A stretch of 64,000 bases of DNA from Candidatus Latescibacterota bacterium (GTDB lineage Bacteria > Latescibacterota > UBA2968): NCBI GenBank assembly GCA_965198115.1, contig OZ240241.1, forward strand, positions 1,632,001 through 1,696,000, given 5' to 3'. The translations under genes were made by a program, and so were the position numbers. The notes beneath the pieces were generated by a model. The model was not told the DNA's origin and made no database searches. It saw only the letters and a program-made list of their open reading frames with translations. Positions 7,096-57,576 of the stretch are shown here, in pieces. Every line of letters begins with the position of its first letter. Position 1 is the first letter of the stretch.

Positions 7096-7168
7096 GGGGC
7101 TGTAGCTCAGATGGGAGAGCGCCTGAATGGCATTCAGGAGGTCAGGGGTTCGATCCCCCTCAGCTCCA
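7096..7168 (+). tRNA. tRNA-Ala(GGC), CCA end not encoded
   Basis: GGGGCTG/CAGCTCC acceptor stem, CCTGA-ATGGCAT-TCAGG anticodon arm and GTTCGAT T-loop. Confidence 0.97.
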
Positions 7169-49370: not shown

Positions 49371-50132
49371 ATGAACGTTCTCCACATCAGATTCGGACAC
49401 TCGCTGCTCTCGACGCTCGCCAGAGCCACGCTCGTTCAGAAGCAGTTTCAACGGCTCCTGGCCGACCGGCCGACGGGTGTGCGCGTGGCGTGCCGTAGCA
49501 AGCAGCCACACGCCGACCTGAACAGCCGTTACACCGCCATCACGCTGCGGTCCGCCGGAGCCACGGCCGGAGCCATGCTCCTCTCCTTCCTCCTTTACCC
49601 GGAACACATCCCAACCGTCGGCCAGGGCACGCGAAGACCCGCCATAATTCACGTGGAACACATTCCGGAGACGGTGCAGAGAACACAGCCACCTGCCCCA
49701 CCCAGACCCGTCGTTCCGATCGCGGTCGAGGGGGACGTGCCCGACACCGTCACCATCGAACCCACAGACCTCGACCTCGATGCCATCCCCATCGACCTCT
49801 CCCTCTCCGGGCCTCCTGGAGGGGGCGGGCCCCTTTCAGACGAGCCCATGGACGCGTCCGAGATCGACTACAAACCCCACCTGCTCACGCTCATCATGCC
49901 GGCGTTTCCGAGCGAGGCCCGAAGGGACCGATTGAAATCCGGATCCGCGAAGGTCAAGCTGCTGGTCGACAAACGGGGAAAGGTCGAAAAGGTGGAGTTT
50001 GTGGATGGACCTGCGGTGTTCAGAGAGGAAGCGATCTCCACAGCCTACCGCTACCGGTTCCGCCCGGGCAAGCATCAGGGGGAAGTCAGAAAAGTGTGGA
50101 TGGAGATTTCGATACAGTTCCGATACGACTGA
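49371..50132 (+). CDS. TonB-family energy transducer-like protein (start uncertain)
   Basis: TM segment, Pro-rich linker and C-terminal P.FP..A...G...V..LVD..GKV...YRFRPGK..G. Confidence 0.78.
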   Translation: MNVLHIRFGHSLLSTLARATLVQKQFQRLLADRPTGVRVACRSKQPHADLNSRYTAITLRSAGATAGAMLLSFLLYPEHIPTVGQGTRRPAIIHVEHIPETVQRTQPPAPPRPVVPIAVEGDVPDTVTIEPTDLDLDAIPIDLSLSGPPGGGGPLSDEPMDASEIDYKPHLLTLIMPAFPSEARRDRLKSGSAKVKLLVDKRGKVEKVEFVDGPAVFREEAISTAYRYRFRPGKHQGEVRKVWMEISIQFRYD

Positions 50133-50139
50133 AACCTCA

Positions 50140-50622
50140 CTACCCGTCGGAATCATCCGTTTTCTTCAAGGACGCGATCTGCTCGTTTGCCGCTCTCAGC
50201 CTCTTGGAGAGGACGCGCGTCATGTTGAGCACCATACTCAGGTGCGCATCACGATGTGCCTCGAAGAAAAGCCGAAGGGTTTCGAGTGGGAATTCCAGCA
50301 ACATCGCCTCGGGATCCGCCCGGACCGTCGCTGACCTCGGCAACACATCCACGAAAACCATCTCGCCAAAGAAGTCCCCGCGGCGGTGCAGCCGCGTCAA
50401 CTCGACCTTGTTCCCGTCGCCCGTCTTTTTCTCGATGACCACCTCGCCATCGTGAAGGATATACATCGATTCACCGGGCTCCCCCTCCTCCACGATCACG
50501 TTACCATCGCGGAACTGGTGAATCGCGGCCGCGCCGACGAGAGATTCCAGCTCGTCCATGTTCAGGCCGACCAGAAGTGGCGACAGGCTCAATGTATGGT
50601 AGTCGATCTCGCTCATGTTCAC
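50140..50622 (-). CDS. Cyclic nucleotide-binding domain protein
   Basis: IVEEGEPGESMYIL..GEV...GDFFGEM...PRSATVRA. Confidence 0.9.
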   Translation of the reverse strand: MNMSEIDYHTLSLSPLLVGLNMDELESLVGAAAIHQFRDGNVIVEEGEPGESMYILHDGEVVIEKKTGDGNKVELTRLHRRGDFFGEMVFVDVLPRSATVRADPEAMLLEFPLETLRLFFEAHRDAHLSMVLNMTRVLSKRLRAANEQIASLKKTDDSDG

Positions 50623-50626
50623 TCGT

Positions 50627-51328
50627 TCATCGACGGGTCACACCGTGTCTCAGCGTCAATTCCTGCAGCAGCACGCCGTAGGACGTCCTCAGGCTCGAAT
50701 CGAGACGAAAGGCGTGCCGGTAGGAACGAGCCGCCTCCCGATAAAAACCCTTGGCCGTCAGCACCCGCCCCAGAAGAAGGTAGTTTTCAGCGAAATCGGG
50801 CGCCAGCTCGGTAATCCGCGTGGCCATCTCGTGGGCGGTCTCGAAGTCTCGACGAGCCACGTGAATCCAAGCCTTCCCGAATCGGCTGTGGGGGTTCGTC
50901 GGATCCTTCTCCTCGGCAAGACTGTAGTAGAGGAGGGCGTTGTCGAGGTCTCCCGATCGGTGATACAGATAGCCGAGGCTCGACAGAATACCTGCATCGA
51001 GGGTGTCGATGGCCGCAACCTGCAGACCAGCCTGGATCGACTGCTCCAGGTCATCGAGGTGCAGGTAGCAACTCGCCAAGAGTCGCAGGGCTTGAAGGTG
51101 ACCCGTACGGTGAAGCAGGAAATCGCCCAACTCCGATGCGGCCGAGGCGTAATCCCCGTTTTCCATCGAAAGCCGTACACCGTCGAGACCGGGGTCGAGT
51201 ACGACTCCTGCCGTATCCGGACTCAGGTCGATGTCGGCTGGCTGTAGCAGCGCATCGAGGCCCGTCTGGGCGTATCCGGCCCCGCCGAGCAGGAGCCAAA
51301 CGAACGCCACCACGCAGAACCGACTCAT
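50627..51328 (-). CDS. Secreted TPR protein
   Basis: Signal peptide followed by TPR-like helical repeats (LGYLY...GDLDNA, LGRVL...G.Y.EA). Confidence 0.8.
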   Translation of the reverse strand: MSRFCVVAFVWLLLGGAGYAQTGLDALLQPADIDLSPDTAGVVLDPGLDGVRLSMENGDYASAASELGDFLLHRTGHLQALRLLASCYLHLDDLEQSIQAGLQVAAIDTLDAGILSSLGYLYHRSGDLDNALLYYSLAEEKDPTNPHSRFGKAWIHVARRDFETAHEMATRITELAPDFAENYLLLGRVLTAKGFYREAARSYRHAFRLDSSLRTSYGVLLQELTLRHGVTRR

Positions 51329-51963
51329 CCTACCACTTTCCCCTTCAGATAGAGCAACGAGTATATCCCCAGGACGCCCCCGAACCCTCCGACGACGATC
51401 ACGATGGTCGTGTTCGACAGTCCACCGAGGGTCCCGAGCACTTCTGCGTGCAGCTTGACGAACGCCTCGTTCCCGGGTTCCAGATCGAGCACCCGTTCGA
51501 TGGCTGTCCGCGCTTGGGCTTCCTCACCACGACCGTAATGAATCCGAGCAAGGTTGTAATAGGCCGTGGCGACATCCGGGGACACACGAACCGCCTGGCG
51601 ATACAGCCGCTCGGCAGCCTCCGGCTTCCCCTGTCTTTCGTAGACCGTACCGAGGTTGTTGTAGGCGTCGCCGTCCTTGGGATCCAGCTTGAGCACTTCC
51701 CGATAATACTTCTCTGCAAGGTCGTATCGTTTTTGAACAAAGCAGAGATACGCCAGATTGTAACGCGCATCTCGATGCTTGGGGTCGCGCTTGACGACCT
51801 TGAGATAGAGATCGACCGCCTTTCTCAGATCTTTCGGACGGTCGATACCCAGTTGCGCCTGCTGGGCCTGTTCGAAGAGCGCATCCGTCTCGTCAGCGTG
51901 AAGATACGCCGGGAAAAGCCCTGCCAGGGCCGACACGAAAGTAACCACCCAAACGCGGACCAA
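51325..51963 (-). CDS. TPR protein with a signal peptide and a C-terminal TM anchor
   Basis: ARYNLA, AYNNLG and AYYNLA repeats; hydrophobic C-terminal helix. Confidence 0.85.
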   Translation of the reverse strand: MVRVWVVTFVSALAGLFPAYLHADETDALFEQAQQAQLGIDRPKDLRKAVDLYLKVVKRDPKHRDARYNLAYLCFVQKRYDLAEKYYREVLKLDPKDGDAYNNLGTVYERQGKPEAAERLYRQAVRVSPDVATAYYNLARIHYGRGEEAQARTAIERVLDLEPGNEAFVKLHAEVLGTLGGLSNTTIVIVVGGFGGVLGIYSLLYLKGKVVG

Positions 51964-52254
51964 TCGTTCCTCTCTGAACAGGACTAAAATGGGAACATCA
52001 GATCGATTCGGGTTCTCAGGCTACTCGCGAACCGAACCTCGTCGAGAGACATGACGATGGGCGGCCGGTGCCTCCATAAGTCGAGGCACAGCTGCGCCGA
52101 GATGTCGAGTCGGCGGCTCGCGAGCCGCGCGACGAGGAAAGAGACCGTCAAGAGTCGGATCACGTCAAGTCCTGTTCAATGCTTAAATCATAGCATCGGC
52201 CTCCAACCGGAGTCAAGCTCGATTGGCGATCCAATGTATTTAAGAATCAAGGTG

Positions 52255-53367
52255 TTAGTTGTCCATCGCCCCCTGGTCGATCCAAAGCCGGACCAGCGCC
52301 AGGTCCCCACCGTTCAAAAAAGGCCCGCCCTGCGGCATCCTGTCCCCCAAAATGCCGGCTGAACCGGATATTTTCTGCATCAGGTAACTCGAGTCGGGCG
52401 ACCCGGGTGTCACACGCGGGGTCGTCGGAACCTGGGAGCTGGCCACACCGACCAGCGCCCGCCACGCCGTGTCGGCCGCCATTACCAGACCCTCCCCGGG
52501 GGGAAATCGATCGGATGCCGCGTGGCACCCGACGAACGCACAGTTTTGGTCGAACAGGGGTTGGATGTCCCGCGAAAAACCGGTCTCGGGTCGATAGGAG
52601 AAGGATTCGGACAGGGTGGCCGCACGGAGTCCGTCCGCGCCCATCACGCCGTCGATCTCGATCGTAAGAGAAACGCCCGCGGCGAGCGGCGACGTCGTCG
52701 CAGTCAGCAGGTCCGCTCCGTCGAACATCGTCGACAGAACGCTAACCTCACCCGCATCGGTCGTCACACGAACGGTTGGAATCAGAGCGGAATCGACCGC
52801 CTTCGTGAACGTGATCTGGACGCGGTCTGCCGCCGACGCGACGACGGCCCGGATATCGGGGGGCGTCGGGGGGGCTTTCGTTCGGAGCGCTCCCGCGCCG
52901 ATCCAGTCGCGGATCGCGGCGATCTCCGCAATATCCAAAGGGGGGCGCTCCAGCGGCATGCGGTCCCCAAAAGCCACGCGACCCGCGGAGTCTACGCCCT
53001 CGAGTTTCCAGATGAGCAGGCTGTTGTCGGGGTCGCCAGCGATCACCTGAGGACCGTTCCGGCTCAGAGTCGGGTCGAAGAGCTCATCGTAGCTGACCGG
53101 TGAGGTGAGATCGAGCCCGGCGTCTCTCTCGCCCACGCCTCCTGGCTCGTGGCAACCCCCCGTACACGACCGGTCGAACACATCCTGGACATCTCGATCG
53201 AAGAACGACGAGGTCCCCGACGGGGCGGCCACAATCGGTGCGGTCGTGAAGGTCTGCCGCGTTCGAACATCGCTGCAGGCCACGATCAACACGGCCAGCA
53301 CACAGATCGTCACTGGTGGCAGTAGCCGCAAAAGCCGACACCCCCCGTGCGTGTGTTGACGTGACAC
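52255..53367 (-). CDS. Putative lipoprotein cytochrome c with two atypical heme motifs (alternative start GTG 53313)
   Basis: Lipobox-like LIVAC; two similar domains F.RD.Q..FD..C(X3/X4)CH...PG.PD.S.L..K...GDRMP...WI..GA flanking an Ig-like region. Confidence 0.78.
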   Translation of the reverse strand: MSRQHTHGGCRLLRLLPPVTICVLAVLIVACSDVRTRQTFTTAPIVAAPSGTSSFFDRDVQDVFDRSCTGGCHEPGGVGERDAGLDLTSPVSYDELFDPTLSRNGPQVIAGDPDNSLLIWKLEGVDSAGRVAFGDRMPLERPPLDIAEIAAIRDWIGAGALRTKAPPTPPDIRAVVASAADRVQITFTKAVDSALIPTVRVTTDAGEVSVLSTMFDGADLLTATTSPLAAGVSLTIEIDGVMGADGLRAATLSESFSYRPETGFSRDIQPLFDQNCAFVGCHAASDRFPPGEGLVMAADTAWRALVGVASSQVPTTPRVTPGSPDSSYLMQKISGSAGILGDRMPQGGPFLNGGDLALVRLWIDQGAMDN

Positions 53368-54473
53368 GCGTAGCAGGTCGCTCCGTCATCGGTATGGAAG
53401 TCTCCTCGGCCGGCTACGTCGGCGAAGTTCACCCCGTGGGTGGCCGGGTCCGTCCCCCGGACACCATCGAAGTCCACGTGGCACTGCAGACAACTCGGGT
53501 CTGCGGCATCGACGTCGTGACAGGCGATGCATCTTTCGATGTCGCGTCGCGCCCACGATGCGTGACGCCCGCCACCCGACCCCATTCCCGCCACCCAGGG
53601 CTCCGGGTCCTGGGGCAACGGACCGTGCCAGATCGGTTTAAATCGTTCCTCCCTGTCCTCAACGCGGTGGCAATCGATGCAGTAGTCCGGTTCGTGGCAG
53701 GACTGACACCGCCGTTCCTTCCCAGCTGCGTCGAGAGGATGCAGAAATCGATAGTTGGGTTCGTGCTGTCTTTGCACCACCTGCCCGATCCTTCCCCGCG
53801 AACTCGGGGCATAAGTCGGAACCCGGTCGGTCGGACTCGACGCCTGGACCAGGAGAGCGCCGGCGTGGCAGTCCTCGCACCAACTGTCGTCGTGGCATTT
53901 TTCGCACGGCATGTCGTCGGCACGACTGTGTTGTTTGTGTTCGTAAACCCAATCCACCCGGTGAGTCTGTGGTCGAATGACCTCCACCCTGGGATGGCAG
54001 GTCTCACACACCAGCGGGGCGTCAGCGTCCTGGTGACAGGTCAGACAGTCGTCCATGATCGGCCAGTTGTGCCGGCTGGCATAGTCGGTCTCCGTCATCC
54101 CCAGGTGGCACCCCTCGCACGACAGCTGAACCGTCTCGAGATGGTACCCGTGTGGAAACTCGATCAGCCGTTCGGGACTGTCGAACGCGACCCTCTGGAC
54201 GTCGGGCCGGTGACACATTCCACACTGCGTTTCGTCCTCGACCTCGCTGTGACACGTGCCACACGTCGCTTCCTTGGGCAGAATGTTGTCACGCGATCGC
54301 GAGCTCGCAGCCGCCTCCGTATGACAGTCCACACACGTCAAGCCGTAGTCGAGCAGGTGCTCTGCGTGCGAAAAGATGATCAGGGCAGATCGATTCTGCT
54401 CGGGTATCGTCACGTGCGACCTGTCTTCGGCGTGGGCGGCCCACACCATCACAAGTGCGGTGATCAGAATCAT
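53310..54473 (-). CDS. Periplasmic multiheme cytochrome c (14 CxxCH motifs)
   Basis: Signal peptide MILITALVMVWAAHA; FSHAEH and FPHGYH c7-like motifs; 14 CxxCH motifs counted; ATGA overlap with the upstream gene. Confidence 0.92.
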   Translation of the reverse strand: MILITALVMVWAAHAEDRSHVTIPEQNRSALIIFSHAEHLLDYGLTCVDCHTEAAASSRSRDNILPKEATCGTCHSEVEDETQCGMCHRPDVQRVAFDSPERLIEFPHGYHLETVQLSCEGCHLGMTETDYASRHNWPIMDDCLTCHQDADAPLVCETCHPRVEVIRPQTHRVDWVYEHKQHSRADDMPCEKCHDDSWCEDCHAGALLVQASSPTDRVPTYAPSSRGRIGQVVQRQHEPNYRFLHPLDAAGKERRCQSCHEPDYCIDCHRVEDREERFKPIWHGPLPQDPEPWVAGMGSGGGRHASWARRDIERCIACHDVDAADPSCLQCHVDFDGVRGTDPATHGVNFADVAGRGDFHTDDGATCYACHVNTRTGGVGFCGYCHQ

Positions 54474-55816
54474 CGAGGCCCACGCTTCGCAAAAATCCAT
54501 CCGGTCGCGCTGAAGAAGAAACGCAGATCGTGTCCGTTTCCCGGAAACGGATTCGCCCGCGTGGCCAGTTTGAGATCCTGAGAGAGATTCTGTCCTTGCA
54601 GGGTGAGGCTGAAGCGTCGCATCGGTCGAATGTGGAGACCCAGCGTCTGCGATGCGACCATCGACCGCGAGCCGCCCGCTTCGTGCGTCTTGAATCGAGT
54701 CAGATTGAAGGACGCCTCGGCCCACACGCGTTCGTGGAGTGTCTTTCGAACGACCGAGGTGACCCCGTCGGAAACGCCACCCGAGCCACGGCGTGCCACG
54801 TATCCGACGACACCGTTGAGCACCTGGGCGCCCGCGTTGAAGCGAGCTCCTCGATCGGAGGCATAGTCCACGAGACTCGCGATCCCGAAGAGCCCGAAGA
54901 AACGGTTGAACCGGTAGGTTCCGCGCAGGGAGTATTCCTGATTTCCGGCCTGGGCGAACACCGCGAAGAGACTGTTCTGGTCAACGTAGGGTGTGCGGTG
55001 TATGAAGTCCGCCGAGAGGGAGGTAGGACCGCGCTGAAAGCGGAGGACGCCCTCGACGCGACGCGTCTTCCAACCGTCCGGGATGCTCGTATCCCACCTG
55101 AAGTACCCCGAAAGTGGGCCGACCTGGCGTCGCAGATCAAGGCCGGCCATTTCCTGCTCGACTTCGCCCGGTTTGATCTCCAAAGCGGAAAGGCCCGCGG
55201 CTTCACGGTACTCTGCGCGATAGGGTTTGGCTTCTCGGCTGCGGCGGTAATAGCTCAGACCCATTGTGGTTCCCGCCAGCGTAGACAGAAACCGACCGCC
55301 GTAGATGTGGCCCTCGCTCCACGACGAGACCCCTTCTTCTCCGGCGGCCACGAGTGTACCCACGTAGAAGTCCCATTCCCCCACTCCGGAAGCGCGGCCC
55401 GATGCACGCAGGCCATCGATCCGACCGACACCCACACCCGACAGGATCGTCTGTCGCCCGAATTTCCCCACGAACCGTCGACCCGCGTCCCGATACCTCA
55501 CGAACCCGTGGTAGAGTCGGTAGGCAGGGTCGCCGCCGATGCCGGCCCTCATCTCCTTCGACATCCTTCCATAGACGTGAAGGGAGACCTCCGGGCGGCC
55601 GACGCCCATCAACCGGACGCGGCCCGTTTGGTAGACCCGGAAGGATCCAGTCGTCACCGAATCCTGAAGCGCCCGCTCGAACGTGTAGAACGCGGATGTG
55701 AACCGACCGGAAAGTGTTGTCCCCCAGACGGTTAAAGATAAAAAGTAGAGTAAACAGAGAAGGAGAAGCCCGCGGATCTGCCAGCCCGTCATCGAGTCGA
55801 ATCTCAGGAAGGTCAT
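54470..55816 (-). CDS. Putative outer-membrane beta-barrel (porin-like) protein
   Basis: Signal peptide; alternating aromatic/hydrophobic beta pattern throughout, GRQ motif and a final FFFSATGWIF strand; coupled to the multiheme cytochrome. Confidence 0.72.
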   Translation of the reverse strand: MTFLRFDSMTGWQIRGLLLLCLLYFLSLTVWGTTLSGRFTSAFYTFERALQDSVTTGSFRVYQTGRVRLMGVGRPEVSLHVYGRMSKEMRAGIGGDPAYRLYHGFVRYRDAGRRFVGKFGRQTILSGVGVGRIDGLRASGRASGVGEWDFYVGTLVAAGEEGVSSWSEGHIYGGRFLSTLAGTTMGLSYYRRSREAKPYRAEYREAAGLSALEIKPGEVEQEMAGLDLRRQVGPLSGYFRWDTSIPDGWKTRRVEGVLRFQRGPTSLSADFIHRTPYVDQNSLFAVFAQAGNQEYSLRGTYRFNRFFGLFGIASLVDYASDRGARFNAGAQVLNGVVGYVARRGSGGVSDGVTSVVRKTLHERVWAEASFNLTRFKTHEAGGSRSMVASQTLGLHIRPMRRFSLTLQGQNLSQDLKLATRANPFPGNGHDLRFFFSATGWIFAKRGPR

Positions 55817-55863: not shown

Positions 55864-55984
55864 CTTGCCTGGGCTGTCGGAAATACAAATCCCGGCCTGC
55901 CGATCCGTGTCGTCGTAACGTCCGACGGCGTAGGGAGATCCGTCGGGGGGAAGACGACGGGGGAAAGCCGACAGGCCGGGCAAG
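55864..55984 (-). promoter_or_regulatory. Structured 5' leader of the porin-cytochrome operon (candidate cis-regulatory RNA)
   Basis: Segment 55968-55984 is complementary to both 55891-55903 and 55864-55880, with nested inner stems. Candidate promoter TTGCGG-N17-TACCTT at 56009-56037. Confidence 0.45.
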
Positions 55985-56058
55985 GTGCCTTTTTCCAATG
56001 ATTTACAAAAGGTAATACATGTCCAATGGGGCCGCAAGACCACGGGTGTTCGGATCCG

Positions 56059-57192
56059 TCAGGCCAACGTTTTCCACGCTACGGATCCCTCGACCGACTC
56101 GAATGCACCGTTTTTCGGGTTTTCGCTCAGGTTGAACAGAGTCTTTTTGCCGTCCAGACTCCACGATTCGAGCTGAGGCCCGATGTCCGATTGCTGGACC
56201 TTGGTTTCGGCCCAGGTTTCGTCCATCTCGATCACACCCGACGAGGAGTCCTTGACGTGCGAAAGTTGCAGGGCCCTCACGCGGCAGCCGGTGTGGATTT
56301 CTCCCCTAACCCGACACCGCACCGGGACAGCCTGTTCGAGTCCTTCCAGAAGCTCGTTCCGTTCCAGTTGGAGCCCCTCGACATCTTTCCGAAGCTGGTC
56401 CGCCCGTTGTACTATCATCACGTGCTCGCGGAGCTCTTCGATCACTTTTAGGAAAATCCTGTGCCGACTCGGGTTCTGGCTTACGTAACCTTTATTCGTT
56501 CGCGTGATCATGCCCACGACGACTTTCAGATAAAACTCCTGCAGGGCCCTCGCGGCGTCTTGCCTATCTCCCAAGGCATTGTAAAATGCGTTCAGATCGA
56601 CTTTCAGTTCCCCGGGACCCGGAATGAGAATGCTGCCCAGCCGCAAATCGACCTGGGGGTAATCCCGAATGAACTTTCGTGCGCCTGCCCCGACCTTCAC
56701 CTCGAGTGCTGAAAGTTCCTTGTCGATCGTCTGCATGGCGGCACGCTGTCGTTTGAGGTCTGTGATCTCTCCCGAGCGGTAGCCGAGGGAGACGACCGTC
56801 TCTCGGAGATCGCCACGAACTTCCACACCCATGTCCGAGTGAAGTTCGCTGTTTGCAACATCCCCTTGTACGACGATATGACGCGCCCGGATTCGGGCGT
56901 GCTGCACGGCTTTTTCCACGACCAGCGTCTCATCCACTTCTATCTGACACGTACCCCTCTCGTCACCCAGAACATCCCCGTTAATCGAGAGGTGGCCCCG
57001 CCCCGATATGACGCTGCTGCGAAAGACAGCGCCCTGGATCAGTCCGTTCTGATCGCCGAAATTCAGCTCGCCGCTTTCCGCGTTGACTTCGGGTACGACC
57101 CGAACTTCTTCTTCTTCCTCGGCGTGGTCGTCAGGTTCCGGCATAGAGCTCCCTTCCGTGCCCCCACTCCGATTCTCACCTTCCTGCGTCAT
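56059..57192 (-). CDS. Hypothetical protein, FapA/DUF342-like beta-helix plus coiled coil
   Basis: Repeated I.V.GDV-type beta-helix motifs, a coiled coil and C-terminal VRGEIHTGCRV. Confidence 0.55.
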   Translation of the reverse strand: MTQEGENRSGGTEGSSMPEPDDHAEEEEEVRVVPEVNAESGELNFGDQNGLIQGAVFRSSVISGRGHLSINGDVLGDERGTCQIEVDETLVVEKAVQHARIRARHIVVQGDVANSELHSDMGVEVRGDLRETVVSLGYRSGEITDLKRQRAAMQTIDKELSALEVKVGAGARKFIRDYPQVDLRLGSILIPGPGELKVDLNAFYNALGDRQDAARALQEFYLKVVVGMITRTNKGYVSQNPSRHRIFLKVIEELREHVMIVQRADQLRKDVEGLQLERNELLEGLEQAVPVRCRVRGEIHTGCRVRALQLSHVKDSSSGVIEMDETWAETKVQQSDIGPQLESWSLDGKKTLFNLSENPKNGAFESVEGSVAWKTLA

Positions 57193-57576
57193 TACCTAAA
57201 CCGCGAATCTCATCTCTCTTGTTGACCAGTTCCCGGGTCAGGTCGACCAGCCTCTTAATGGTCTCGGTCCTCACCGGCTTCGCCAGTACCAGATCCGTAT
57301 GTTCGAACACATCCTCCGACACTTCCTCCGTATATCCCGACACGATCGCGATCACTGCCCACGGCATCATACCCCGACGACGGACAGGATATCGATGCCG
57401 CTCACGCCCGACATTTTGATGTCCAGCGTGACCAGATCGAATCGCGTCTGGATGGCACGTGCCAGAGCCTCCTCGCCGCTTTCAGCCACCTCGACGAGAT
57501 CCGCCCCCAGCGTTCGAATGCTATCCGACAAAAAATCGCGAACATCCTGATCATCGTCTACGACAAGAGCTTTCAT
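57176..57576 (-). CDS. Stand-alone response regulator receiver domain, frameshifted near 57375
   Basis: MKALVVDDD...DLVTLDIKMSGVSGID, then after one inserted base RGMMPWAVIAIVSGY...LAKPV; paralog of 10543..10935. Confidence 0.8.

What the first reader, a model, noticed from the sequence alone, without database searches (positions are those of the whole stretch)
55864..56037. Switch-like leader RNA with mutually exclusive pairings upstream of the porin-cytochrome operon
Seen in sequence (minus-strand transcript): the 5' segment CUUGCCCGGCCUGUCGG (55984-55968) can pair with UCGGCAGGCCGGG (55903-55891, 13 bp including G-U). That pairing closes a long nested hairpin with inner stems CGUCGU/ACGACG and CCGACGG/CCGUCGG. 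The same segment can instead pair with CCGACAGCCCAGGCAAG (55880-55864, 15 of 17 positions). A candidate promoter TTGCGG-N17-TACCTT lies just upstream. I recognise no known riboswitch aptamer here. Inference: an undescribed cis-regulatory RNA or attenuator controlling the heme-rich operon.
Basis: partly seen in the sequence, partly recalled or inferred. Interest (0 to 1): 0.7.

Follow-up and report, generated by a model that had tools for sequence, protein, structure and literature searches.

The report
New Latescibacterota small hairpin RNA gene
A conserved, uncatalogued hairpin sequence of about 120 bases, sitting behind a conserved promoter-like motif in 14 genomes of an uncultured bacterial class, is likely a free-standing regulatory RNA rather than the two-state switch first proposed, and is predicted to bind the ribosome-binding sites of other genes' messages through an exposed C-rich loop.

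Summary
The pairings and promoter motif are in the sequence as reported. The switch is not supported. The distal partner (55880-55864) is missing in the relatives, including the same-genus genome. In the predicted ensemble its pairing reaches at most 0.06.

What is conserved is the nested hairpin. It was found in 14 of 132 genomes of the class (three families), with covariation, and matches no Rfam family. All 14 carry a sigma70-like motif upstream. It ends in a U-rich tail or a separate terminator.

The porin gene follows directly in only 6 of 14. Elsewhere the next gene points the other way, or encodes a TPR protein, transporter or peptidase, so it is not a porin-specific leader. The best-kept part is an unpaired C-rich loop (AYCUYYCYAC), repeated at the 5' end in one family and complementary to Shine-Dalgarno-type sequence.

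Best reading (0.45): an Hfq-independent trans-acting small RNA with anti-Shine-Dalgarno seeds, working like NfeR1 or RepG. No conserved target or expression data were found. Rivals: regulated terminator leader (0.25), protein sponge (0.12), short 6S-like RNA (0.1).

The parts
55881..56003 (-). Predicted small RNA, about 120 nt; 5' end inferred as 6-7 nt after the -10 box, 3' end inferred at the U-rich tail
   Evidence: Homologues in 14 of 132 class genomes; ends not measured
56032..56037 (-). -35-like box TTGCGG
   Evidence: TTG(C/A)nn kept in 14 of 14 homologues
56009..56014 (-). -10-like box TACCTT
   Evidence: TAnnnT at 17 nt spacing in 13 of 14, 18 nt in G058; chance 0.0014 per 20-position window
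55985..56003 (-). Purine-rich 5' leader, not conserved in pairing
   Evidence: Leader:tail pairing p<0.05 in 2 of 13
55968..55980 (-). Closing stem P1, 5' strand (core of segment A)
   Evidence: Pair probability 0.87-1.0 in transcripts up to 154 nt; 95.5% of cells paired, 3 pairs with two-sided change
55960..55967 (-). C/U-rich internal loop strand
   Evidence: A C/U run at this place in 10 of 11 homologues of families f1 and f2, not G007
55954..55959 (-). Stem P2, 5' strand
   Evidence: Folds; variable in sequence
55940..55946 (-). Stem P3, 5' strand
55929..55939 (-). Apical loop AUCUCCCUACG, candidate seed
   Evidence: Motif A(U/C/G)CUYYCYAC in 14 of 14; mean unpaired probability 0.78-0.98 in 13 of 14, 0.46 in G010
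55922..55928 (-). Stem P3, 3' strand
55911..55916 (-). Stem P2, 3' strand
55891..55903 (-). Closing stem P1, 3' strand (segment B)
55881..55890 (-). U-rich tail AUUUGUAUUU, terminator-like
   Evidence: At least 6 U in the first 10 nt in 10 of 11 f1/f2 homologues; not called by the terminator scan, which needs a loop of 3-8 nt
55864..55880 (-). Segment C, inverted copy of A; only in this genome
56059..57192 (-). Upstream neighbour: FapA-like protein (context)
   Evidence: PF03961, E=2.7e-4, below cut-off; orthologues
54470..55816 (-). Downstream neighbour: outer-membrane beta-barrel, start at 55816 or 55792 (context)
53310..54473 (-). Multiheme cytochrome c, likely start overlapping the porin stop (context)
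   Evidence: PF14522, PF14537; 14 CxxCH in the ORF

Best explanation
This is likely a free-standing small RNA gene: a conserved promoter-like motif would drive a transcript of about 120 nt (up to about 190 nt where a second terminator follows) that is predicted to fold into one rod exposing a C-rich loop. The loop, helped by the other C/U-rich single strands, would pair with G/A-rich ribosome-binding sites of mRNAs from other loci and block their translation, without Hfq. Shown: conservation, covariation, promoter motif, changing neighbours, loop conservation and repetition. Inferred: transcription, termination, base-pairing, targets. In this genome the tail is leaky-looking and no second promoter motif was found, so the porin operon may be read through from the same promoter.
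For: Own promoter motif in 14 of 14 homologues. A 3' end signal: U-rich tail in 10 of 11 f1/f2 homologues and a separate intrinsic terminator in 6 of 14 (G029, G047, G052, G054, G056, G058). Downstream gene varies: porin in 6 of 14; porin remnant then TPR gene in G002; Temptin_C/Ig protein in G036; oppositely oriented short-chain dehydrogenase in G051 and G052; TPR gene in G026; AI-2E transporter in G054 and G056; M42 peptidase in G058. Stems change while staying paired, and P1 has a different sequence in family f4, but the loop motif is kept in 14 of 14. An exact second copy, AUCUCCCCAC, lies at the 5' end in 3 of 3 f4 RNAs (chance 2.6e-5 per 15-nt window; one lineage, so one event). The loop complement contains GGAG-type words, which are enriched before start codons in this genome (GGAG 426 versus 66 of 2195 ORFs). 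No Hfq match in this genome.
Against: No target shared across genera: exact seed complements in 8 genomes were nearly all inside ORFs and not orthologous. The loop pairs best with GGGAG, a less common site here than AGGAG (77 versus 219), and its invariant final AC is not explained by anti-SD pairing. No RNA data exist for it. In 12 of 14 genomes a same-strand gene or gene remnant follows, and no second promoter of this pattern was found within 220 nt in 13 of 13 checked, which fits a leader too. Some homologues have alternative pairings downstream.
Confidence: 0.45

Rival explanations
1. It is a cis-acting leader: P1 plus the U-rich tail, or the terminator behind it, ends transcription unless a ligand or protein bound at the conserved loop allows read-through into whatever operon follows (a terminator-embedded sensor).
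For: A conserved loop on a stem followed by U residues is the pattern that marked the HMP-PP riboswitch (PMC6478431, passages). A same-strand gene or remnant follows in 12 of 14 with no second promoter found. In family f4 the terminator's 5' arm pairs with the P1 3' strand better than 97-99% of 418 background terminator arms. In G029 and G047, B pairs with a downstream segment at p 0.003-0.02, and the G047 full-transcript fold opens P1. The porin lies within about 2.2 kb in 9 of 14.
Against: Downstream genes share no function, and two genera have an oppositely oriented gene. No alternative structure is common to the three families. Forced antiterminators cost 3.9, 9.8 and 16.4 kcal/mol in f4; in f2 the arm pairing is unremarkable (10-29% of background). 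GGCC/CCGG words are self-complementary and pair easily by chance.
Confidence: 0.25
2. It is a free-standing RNA that binds and titrates a protein recognising C-rich single strands, using the repeated AUCUCCC(C/U)AC motif.
For: Two or more C/U-rich runs per RNA in 14 of 14, and an exact repeat in f4. The invariant AC fits protein contact. No conserved mRNA target was found.
Against: Only one exact motif copy in 11 of 14; sponge RNAs usually carry many (own knowledge). No candidate protein was identified.
Confidence: 0.12
3. It is a short, diverged 6S-like RNA that mimics an open promoter and holds RNA polymerase.
For: Rod shape with a closing stem. f4 RNAs have a 21-23 nt 5' segment opposite a small hairpin, like the 6S consensus (PMC8414754, passages). 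No 6S was found by RF00013 in 132 class genomes or by RF01685 in this genome, and none is conserved at zapA-rny, so the role is vacant.
Against: Core is 93-122 nt against 160-200 nt. In f1 and f2 the 3' side of the bulge is only about 3-5 nt. No Rfam 6S similarity even at E<=10. Found in only 14 of 132 genomes, and not in 36 mostly near-complete genomes of genera g4 and g7 (limited sensitivity).
Confidence: 0.1
4. One reading: A alternates between B and C to control the porin-cytochrome operon in this genome.
For: A:C is better than shuffled sequence (p about 0.003). G026 has a different strong downstream partner of A (p 0.003), and G052 and G056 have ones at p 0.01.
Against: C is absent in the same genus. 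The other partners lie at unrelated distances (34, 114, 97 nt) among 78 correlated tests. A:C pair probability is at most 0.06. A recent local inverted copy explains C (inference).
Confidence: 0.04

Closest known systems
NfeR1 / alpha-r14 sRNAs of rhizobia (PMC10746234, passages read)
   Same: Hfq-independent, about 120 nt, conserved C/U-rich anti-Shine-Dalgarno motif in unpaired loops while stems vary, motif repeated.
   Different: Three hairpins with identical CCUCCUCCC loops there; one long rod with AYCUYYCYAC here. No Rfam match; different phylum.
RepG of Helicobacter pylori (PMC8295292, passages read)
   Same: C/U-rich loop on a terminator-type stem pairs with G-rich mRNA leaders; gene lies next to a response regulator gene.
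   Different: RepG has more than one stem-loop and a known G-repeat target; no sequence or Rfam similarity; no target found here.
HMP-PP (thiS) riboswitch, terminator-embedded aptamer (PMC6478431, passages read)
   Same: Stem followed by U residues with an unusually conserved loop.
   Different: thiS has a conserved alternative fold and exclusive thiamin gene context; neither holds here.
6S RNA (RF00013) and 6S-Flavo (RF01685)
   Same: Rod with closing stem and internal loops; stand-alone gene.
   Different: Shorter, small bulge in two of three families, patchy distribution, no model match.

Membership tests
Any Rfam 15 family | Covariance-model match at gathering score | tested here: not met
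   (12 homologues, best E=1)
Ligand-sensing riboswitch or attenuator of the porin operon | Same functional class of gene downstream | tested here: not met
   Porin next in 6 of 14; five other kinds of neighbour
Ligand-sensing riboswitch or attenuator of the porin operon | Conserved mutually exclusive structure | tested here: not met
   C only in G000; other alternatives lineage-specific
Ligand-sensing riboswitch or attenuator of the porin operon | Ligand-dependent folding or read-through | not testable with these tools
   Needs probing and termination assays
C-rich anti-SD trans-acting sRNAs (mode of action) | Own promoter and 3' end signal, independent of neighbours | tested here: met
   Sequence motifs only; not shown by transcripts
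C-rich anti-SD trans-acting sRNAs (mode of action) | Conserved unpaired C/U-rich seed complementary to SD-type words | tested here: met
C-rich anti-SD trans-acting sRNAs (mode of action) | Conserved mRNA target with covarying site | tested here: inconclusive
   Exact-seed search in 8 genomes found none shared across genera; one genus-level lead
NfeR1 / alpha-r14 family | Three hairpins each with CCUCCUCCC | tested here: not met
   Single rod, other motif; no Rfam match
6S RNA | 160-200 nt rod with large central bulge | tested here: not met
   Core 93-122 nt; small bulge in f1/f2, larger in f4
6S RNA | RF00013 or RF01685 match | tested here: not met
6S RNA | Binds sigma70 holoenzyme, templates product RNA | not testable with these tools
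   Needs biochemistry
Small SRP RNA | RF00169 match | tested here: not met
   The genome's SRP RNA is elsewhere, C1:2141072-2141172, 70 bits
Dispersed repeat (REP or MITE) | Many copies in the genome | tested here: not met
   One copy in G000; one per genome in relatives, two near-identical contigs in G051

The most novel reading that the evidence does not exclude
An undescribed RNA class of Latescibacterota whose invariant apical loop is a sensor or polymerase contact rather than a seed: either a terminator-embedded riboswitch for an unknown ligand that gates porin-multiheme electron-transfer genes, or the missing, minimal 6S-type RNA of this phylum.
Probability: 0.2. Interest if true: 0.8.

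Novelty: new variant of a known kind. Interest (0 to 1): 0.45.

Why it matters
It gives a defined, covarying RNA family with promoter, alignment and models in an uncultured phylum for which my searches found no RNA regulator described. It sits at the head of a porin-multiheme cytochrome cluster in several lineages, so it is a concrete handle on how such electron-transfer genes might be controlled. The RNA is small enough to synthesise and probe. As an anti-SD sRNA it would be a new family of a familiar mechanism; as a sensor or minimal 6S it would matter much more.

Tried and rejected
Plus-strand reading as a 6S RNA with A:C as closing stem: folds well in this genome (-64 kcal/mol) but depends on C, which is not conserved; the promoter, U tail and C-G/U-G exchanges point to the minus strand. 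Folding energy alone favoured the minus strand in only 9 of 13.

Sigma54 promoter: no -24 GG box seen at the right place in G000 and G001, by eye.

Leader peptide from the TTG at the start of P1: frame and length are not kept and f4 lacks it, by eye.

CsrA-type sponge: the ACGGA word lies mostly inside stem P3 and is lost in G029, G047, G052.

Loop pairing with the next 80 nt in cis: p<0.05 in 2 of 13. Leader:tail helix: p<0.05 in 2 of 13.

Expression: no RNA holder listed; laid contigs are from one study, may be this DNA's source, and show no differences.

Seven extra promoter-plus-loop pattern hits in the phylum did not score with R2 and were dropped as chance. The metagenome scan gave two loci nearly identical to G001.

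Earlier findings: three look-ups returned nothing. Paper searches returned nothing.

Full report
Observation. On the minus strand, segment A (55984-55968) pairs with B (55903-55891) to close a rod with two inner stems and an 11-nt loop, or with C (55880-55864) at 15 of 17 positions. TTGCGG-N17-TACCTT lies at 56037-56009. Rfam gives nothing at gathering score over the window except a tRNA, and nothing credible at E<=10 here or on 12 homologues. The element is single-copy in the 8.4-Mb genome. The gene downstream models as a beta-barrel of about 23 strands with porin and usher matches, followed by a cytochrome with 14 CxxCH motifs. One named record carrying a homologue is titled Candidatus Latescibacterota (L172), which is my basis for the phylum name.

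Homologues. Porin orthologues and DNA search gave the first five relatives. Model R1, built from six sequences, matched 11 other genomes of 60 at E<=2e-7 counting its own seeds. Synteny with the upstream FapA-like gene revealed a third family, f4. Model R2 matched 14 of 132 class genomes, in 8 of 31 genera and 3 of 4 families; G058 was the one match outside its training set and earlier hits. Only 28 candidates per genome were scored, so the misses (all 21 of g4, 15 of g7, 76 of f3) mean 'not found', not 'absent'. A promoter-plus-loop pattern over 168 phylum genomes added seven hits that failed R2 and were dropped.

What is conserved. The A:B rod folds with z between -3.0 and -6.6 in 13 of 13 tested. 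On 12 f1/f2 rows fitted to R1, 92.8% of cells pair, 4 of 20 pairs change on both sides, and 0 of 500 shuffles reach the covariation score, though 40 of 500 reach the pair count. On six f2 sequences aligned by MAFFT, 93.1% pair and 5 of 34 pairs change on both sides. Both structures were derived from these sequences, and kin are not independent. In f4 the closing stem has a different sequence and still pairs. C-G to U-G exchanges in P1 point to the minus strand. The promoter motif is kept in 14 of 14 at 17-nt spacing (18 in G058), against 0.0014 expected by chance. The hairpin is followed by at least 6 U in 10 nt in 10 of 11 f1/f2 cases, and by a separate intrinsic terminator in 6 of 14.

What is not conserved. 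Segment C is absent in the same-genus genome and all other homologues. In G000 the forced A:C state is 4.6 to 9.5 kcal/mol worse and its pairs reach at most 0.06 probability. Against my reading: G026 has another strong downstream partner for A (p 0.003), G052 and G056 weaker ones (p 0.01), G029 and G047 have one for B (p 0.003-0.02), and the full G047 transcript folds with P1 open. In f4 the terminator's 5' arm complements B better than 97-99% of 418 background arms, but the forced antiterminator costs 3.9-16.4 kcal/mol (the G052 transcript in that call was cut before its terminator, so its energy comparison is void). These alternatives differ in partner and position and come from 78 correlated tests, so no common switch emerges.

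Neighbours. The porin gene is next in G000, G001, G007, G010, G029 and G047. G002 has a 48-residue porin-like remnant and then a TPR gene. G036 has a Temptin_C/Ig protein, then the porin. G051 and G052 have an oppositely oriented short-chain dehydrogenase, with the porin about 2 kb on. G026 has a TPR gene and no porin found with this query (97% complete, one contig). G054 and G056 have a terminator and an AI-2E transporter, with porins on other contigs. G058 has a terminator and an M42 peptidase (the G054 transporter was recognised by likeness to G056, not scanned). A response regulator or FapA-like gene lies upstream in 11 of 14. The unit of promoter, rod and 3' end signal thus stays while both neighbours change, which is how a free-standing gene behaves. 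No second promoter of this pattern was found within 220 nt downstream in 13 of 13 checked, so read-through into the next gene remains likely in some genomes.

Mechanism. The most constrained single-stranded part is the apical loop, A(U/C/G)CUYYCYAC in 14 of 14, predicted unpaired in 13. All three f4 RNAs carry a second exact copy at their 5' end, and every homologue has further C/U runs. The loop resembles the 16S rRNA 3' end found in this genome and complements GGAG-type words, which are about sixfold enriched before start codons. No Hfq was found. This is the layout of Hfq-independent sRNAs that silence mRNAs through C-rich loops, such as NfeR1 (PMC10746234, passages) and RepG (PMC8295292, passages). 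I commit to that mechanism at 0.45. Its weak point is the target. Exact seed complements in eight genomes were nearly all inside ORFs and not shared. One lead remains: a 15-nt perfect complement of loop plus P3 in the 3' UTR of a cNMP-domain gene in G000, with 12 nt kept in G001 but not in the best hits of six other RNA-bearing genomes. Five of 79 possible 15-mers of the RNA have a perfect complement somewhere in the genome, so this could be chance.

Comparison and novelty. It is not SRP RNA, not a repeat, and not a member of any Rfam family. It fails the 6S tests of length, bulge size and model match (PMC8414754, passages), although no 6S RNA was found in this class and f4 RNAs look more 6S-like. 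It shares a conserved loop on a terminator-like stem with the HMP-PP riboswitch (PMC6478431, passages) but lacks its fixed gene context and conserved second fold. Searches for Latescibacter with 6S RNA and for Latescibacterota with porin-cytochrome found no paper; none of the 12 papers listed names the phylum. Most subscription journals are not covered, and I did not read the supplements of the large motif surveys listed there (PMC8632094, PMC11109978; search listing only), which could hold this motif.

Verdict. A real, conserved RNA family not found in Rfam, most likely a free-standing small RNA. The proposed two-state switch is a feature of this genome alone. Interest 0.45; new variant of a known kind.

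Noticed in passing
window 57176-57576 (-): Single-domain response regulator gene (PF00072) with a frameshift near 57379-57376. The same sequence is in the contigs of runs X1 and X2, which may be this DNA's source. The FapA-like gene is also split or has internal stops in G001, G002, G007 and G010, suggesting decay of this pair in family f1.
   Followed up: partly
L006:1501-1518 (G000 C1:1614936-1614953, -): 15-nt perfect complement of the RNA's loop and P3 strand, between the stop of a cNMP-domain gene and its terminator; 12 nt kept in G001 while flanks differ.
   Followed up: yes
L053 about 1759-1900 (G000 zapA to RNase Y-like gene), also L117, L118, L120, L124: A hairpin of variable length followed by U residues lies between zapA and the next gene in five genomes, longest in G029, very short in G054. 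It may be a terminator or an eroded 6S-type RNA; the zapA-rny link to 6S is recalled, not tested.
   Followed up: partly
window 49371-55816: Cluster of beta-barrel, multiheme cytochrome, protein with weak planctomycete cytochrome c hits, two TPR proteins and a cNMP-domain protein, facing a TonB C-terminal protein. Porin orthologues in 9 of 41 relatives searched.
   Followed up: partly
L045:249-1334 (-) and L047: Secreted protein with a Temptin C-terminal-like domain holding a CxxCH, an Ig domain and a dockerin-like end, in the same cluster in G036 and G051.
   Followed up: no
L045, about 60-95 nt after the hairpin (G036): A separate hairpin that repeats the first bases of P1.
   Followed up: no
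window 7096-7168 (+): A tRNA gene, the only Rfam match in the window.
   Followed up: no
G051:C50 and G051:C62 (L051, L047): Two near-identical copies of the whole locus on different contigs, probably strain mixing in the assembly.
   Followed up: no
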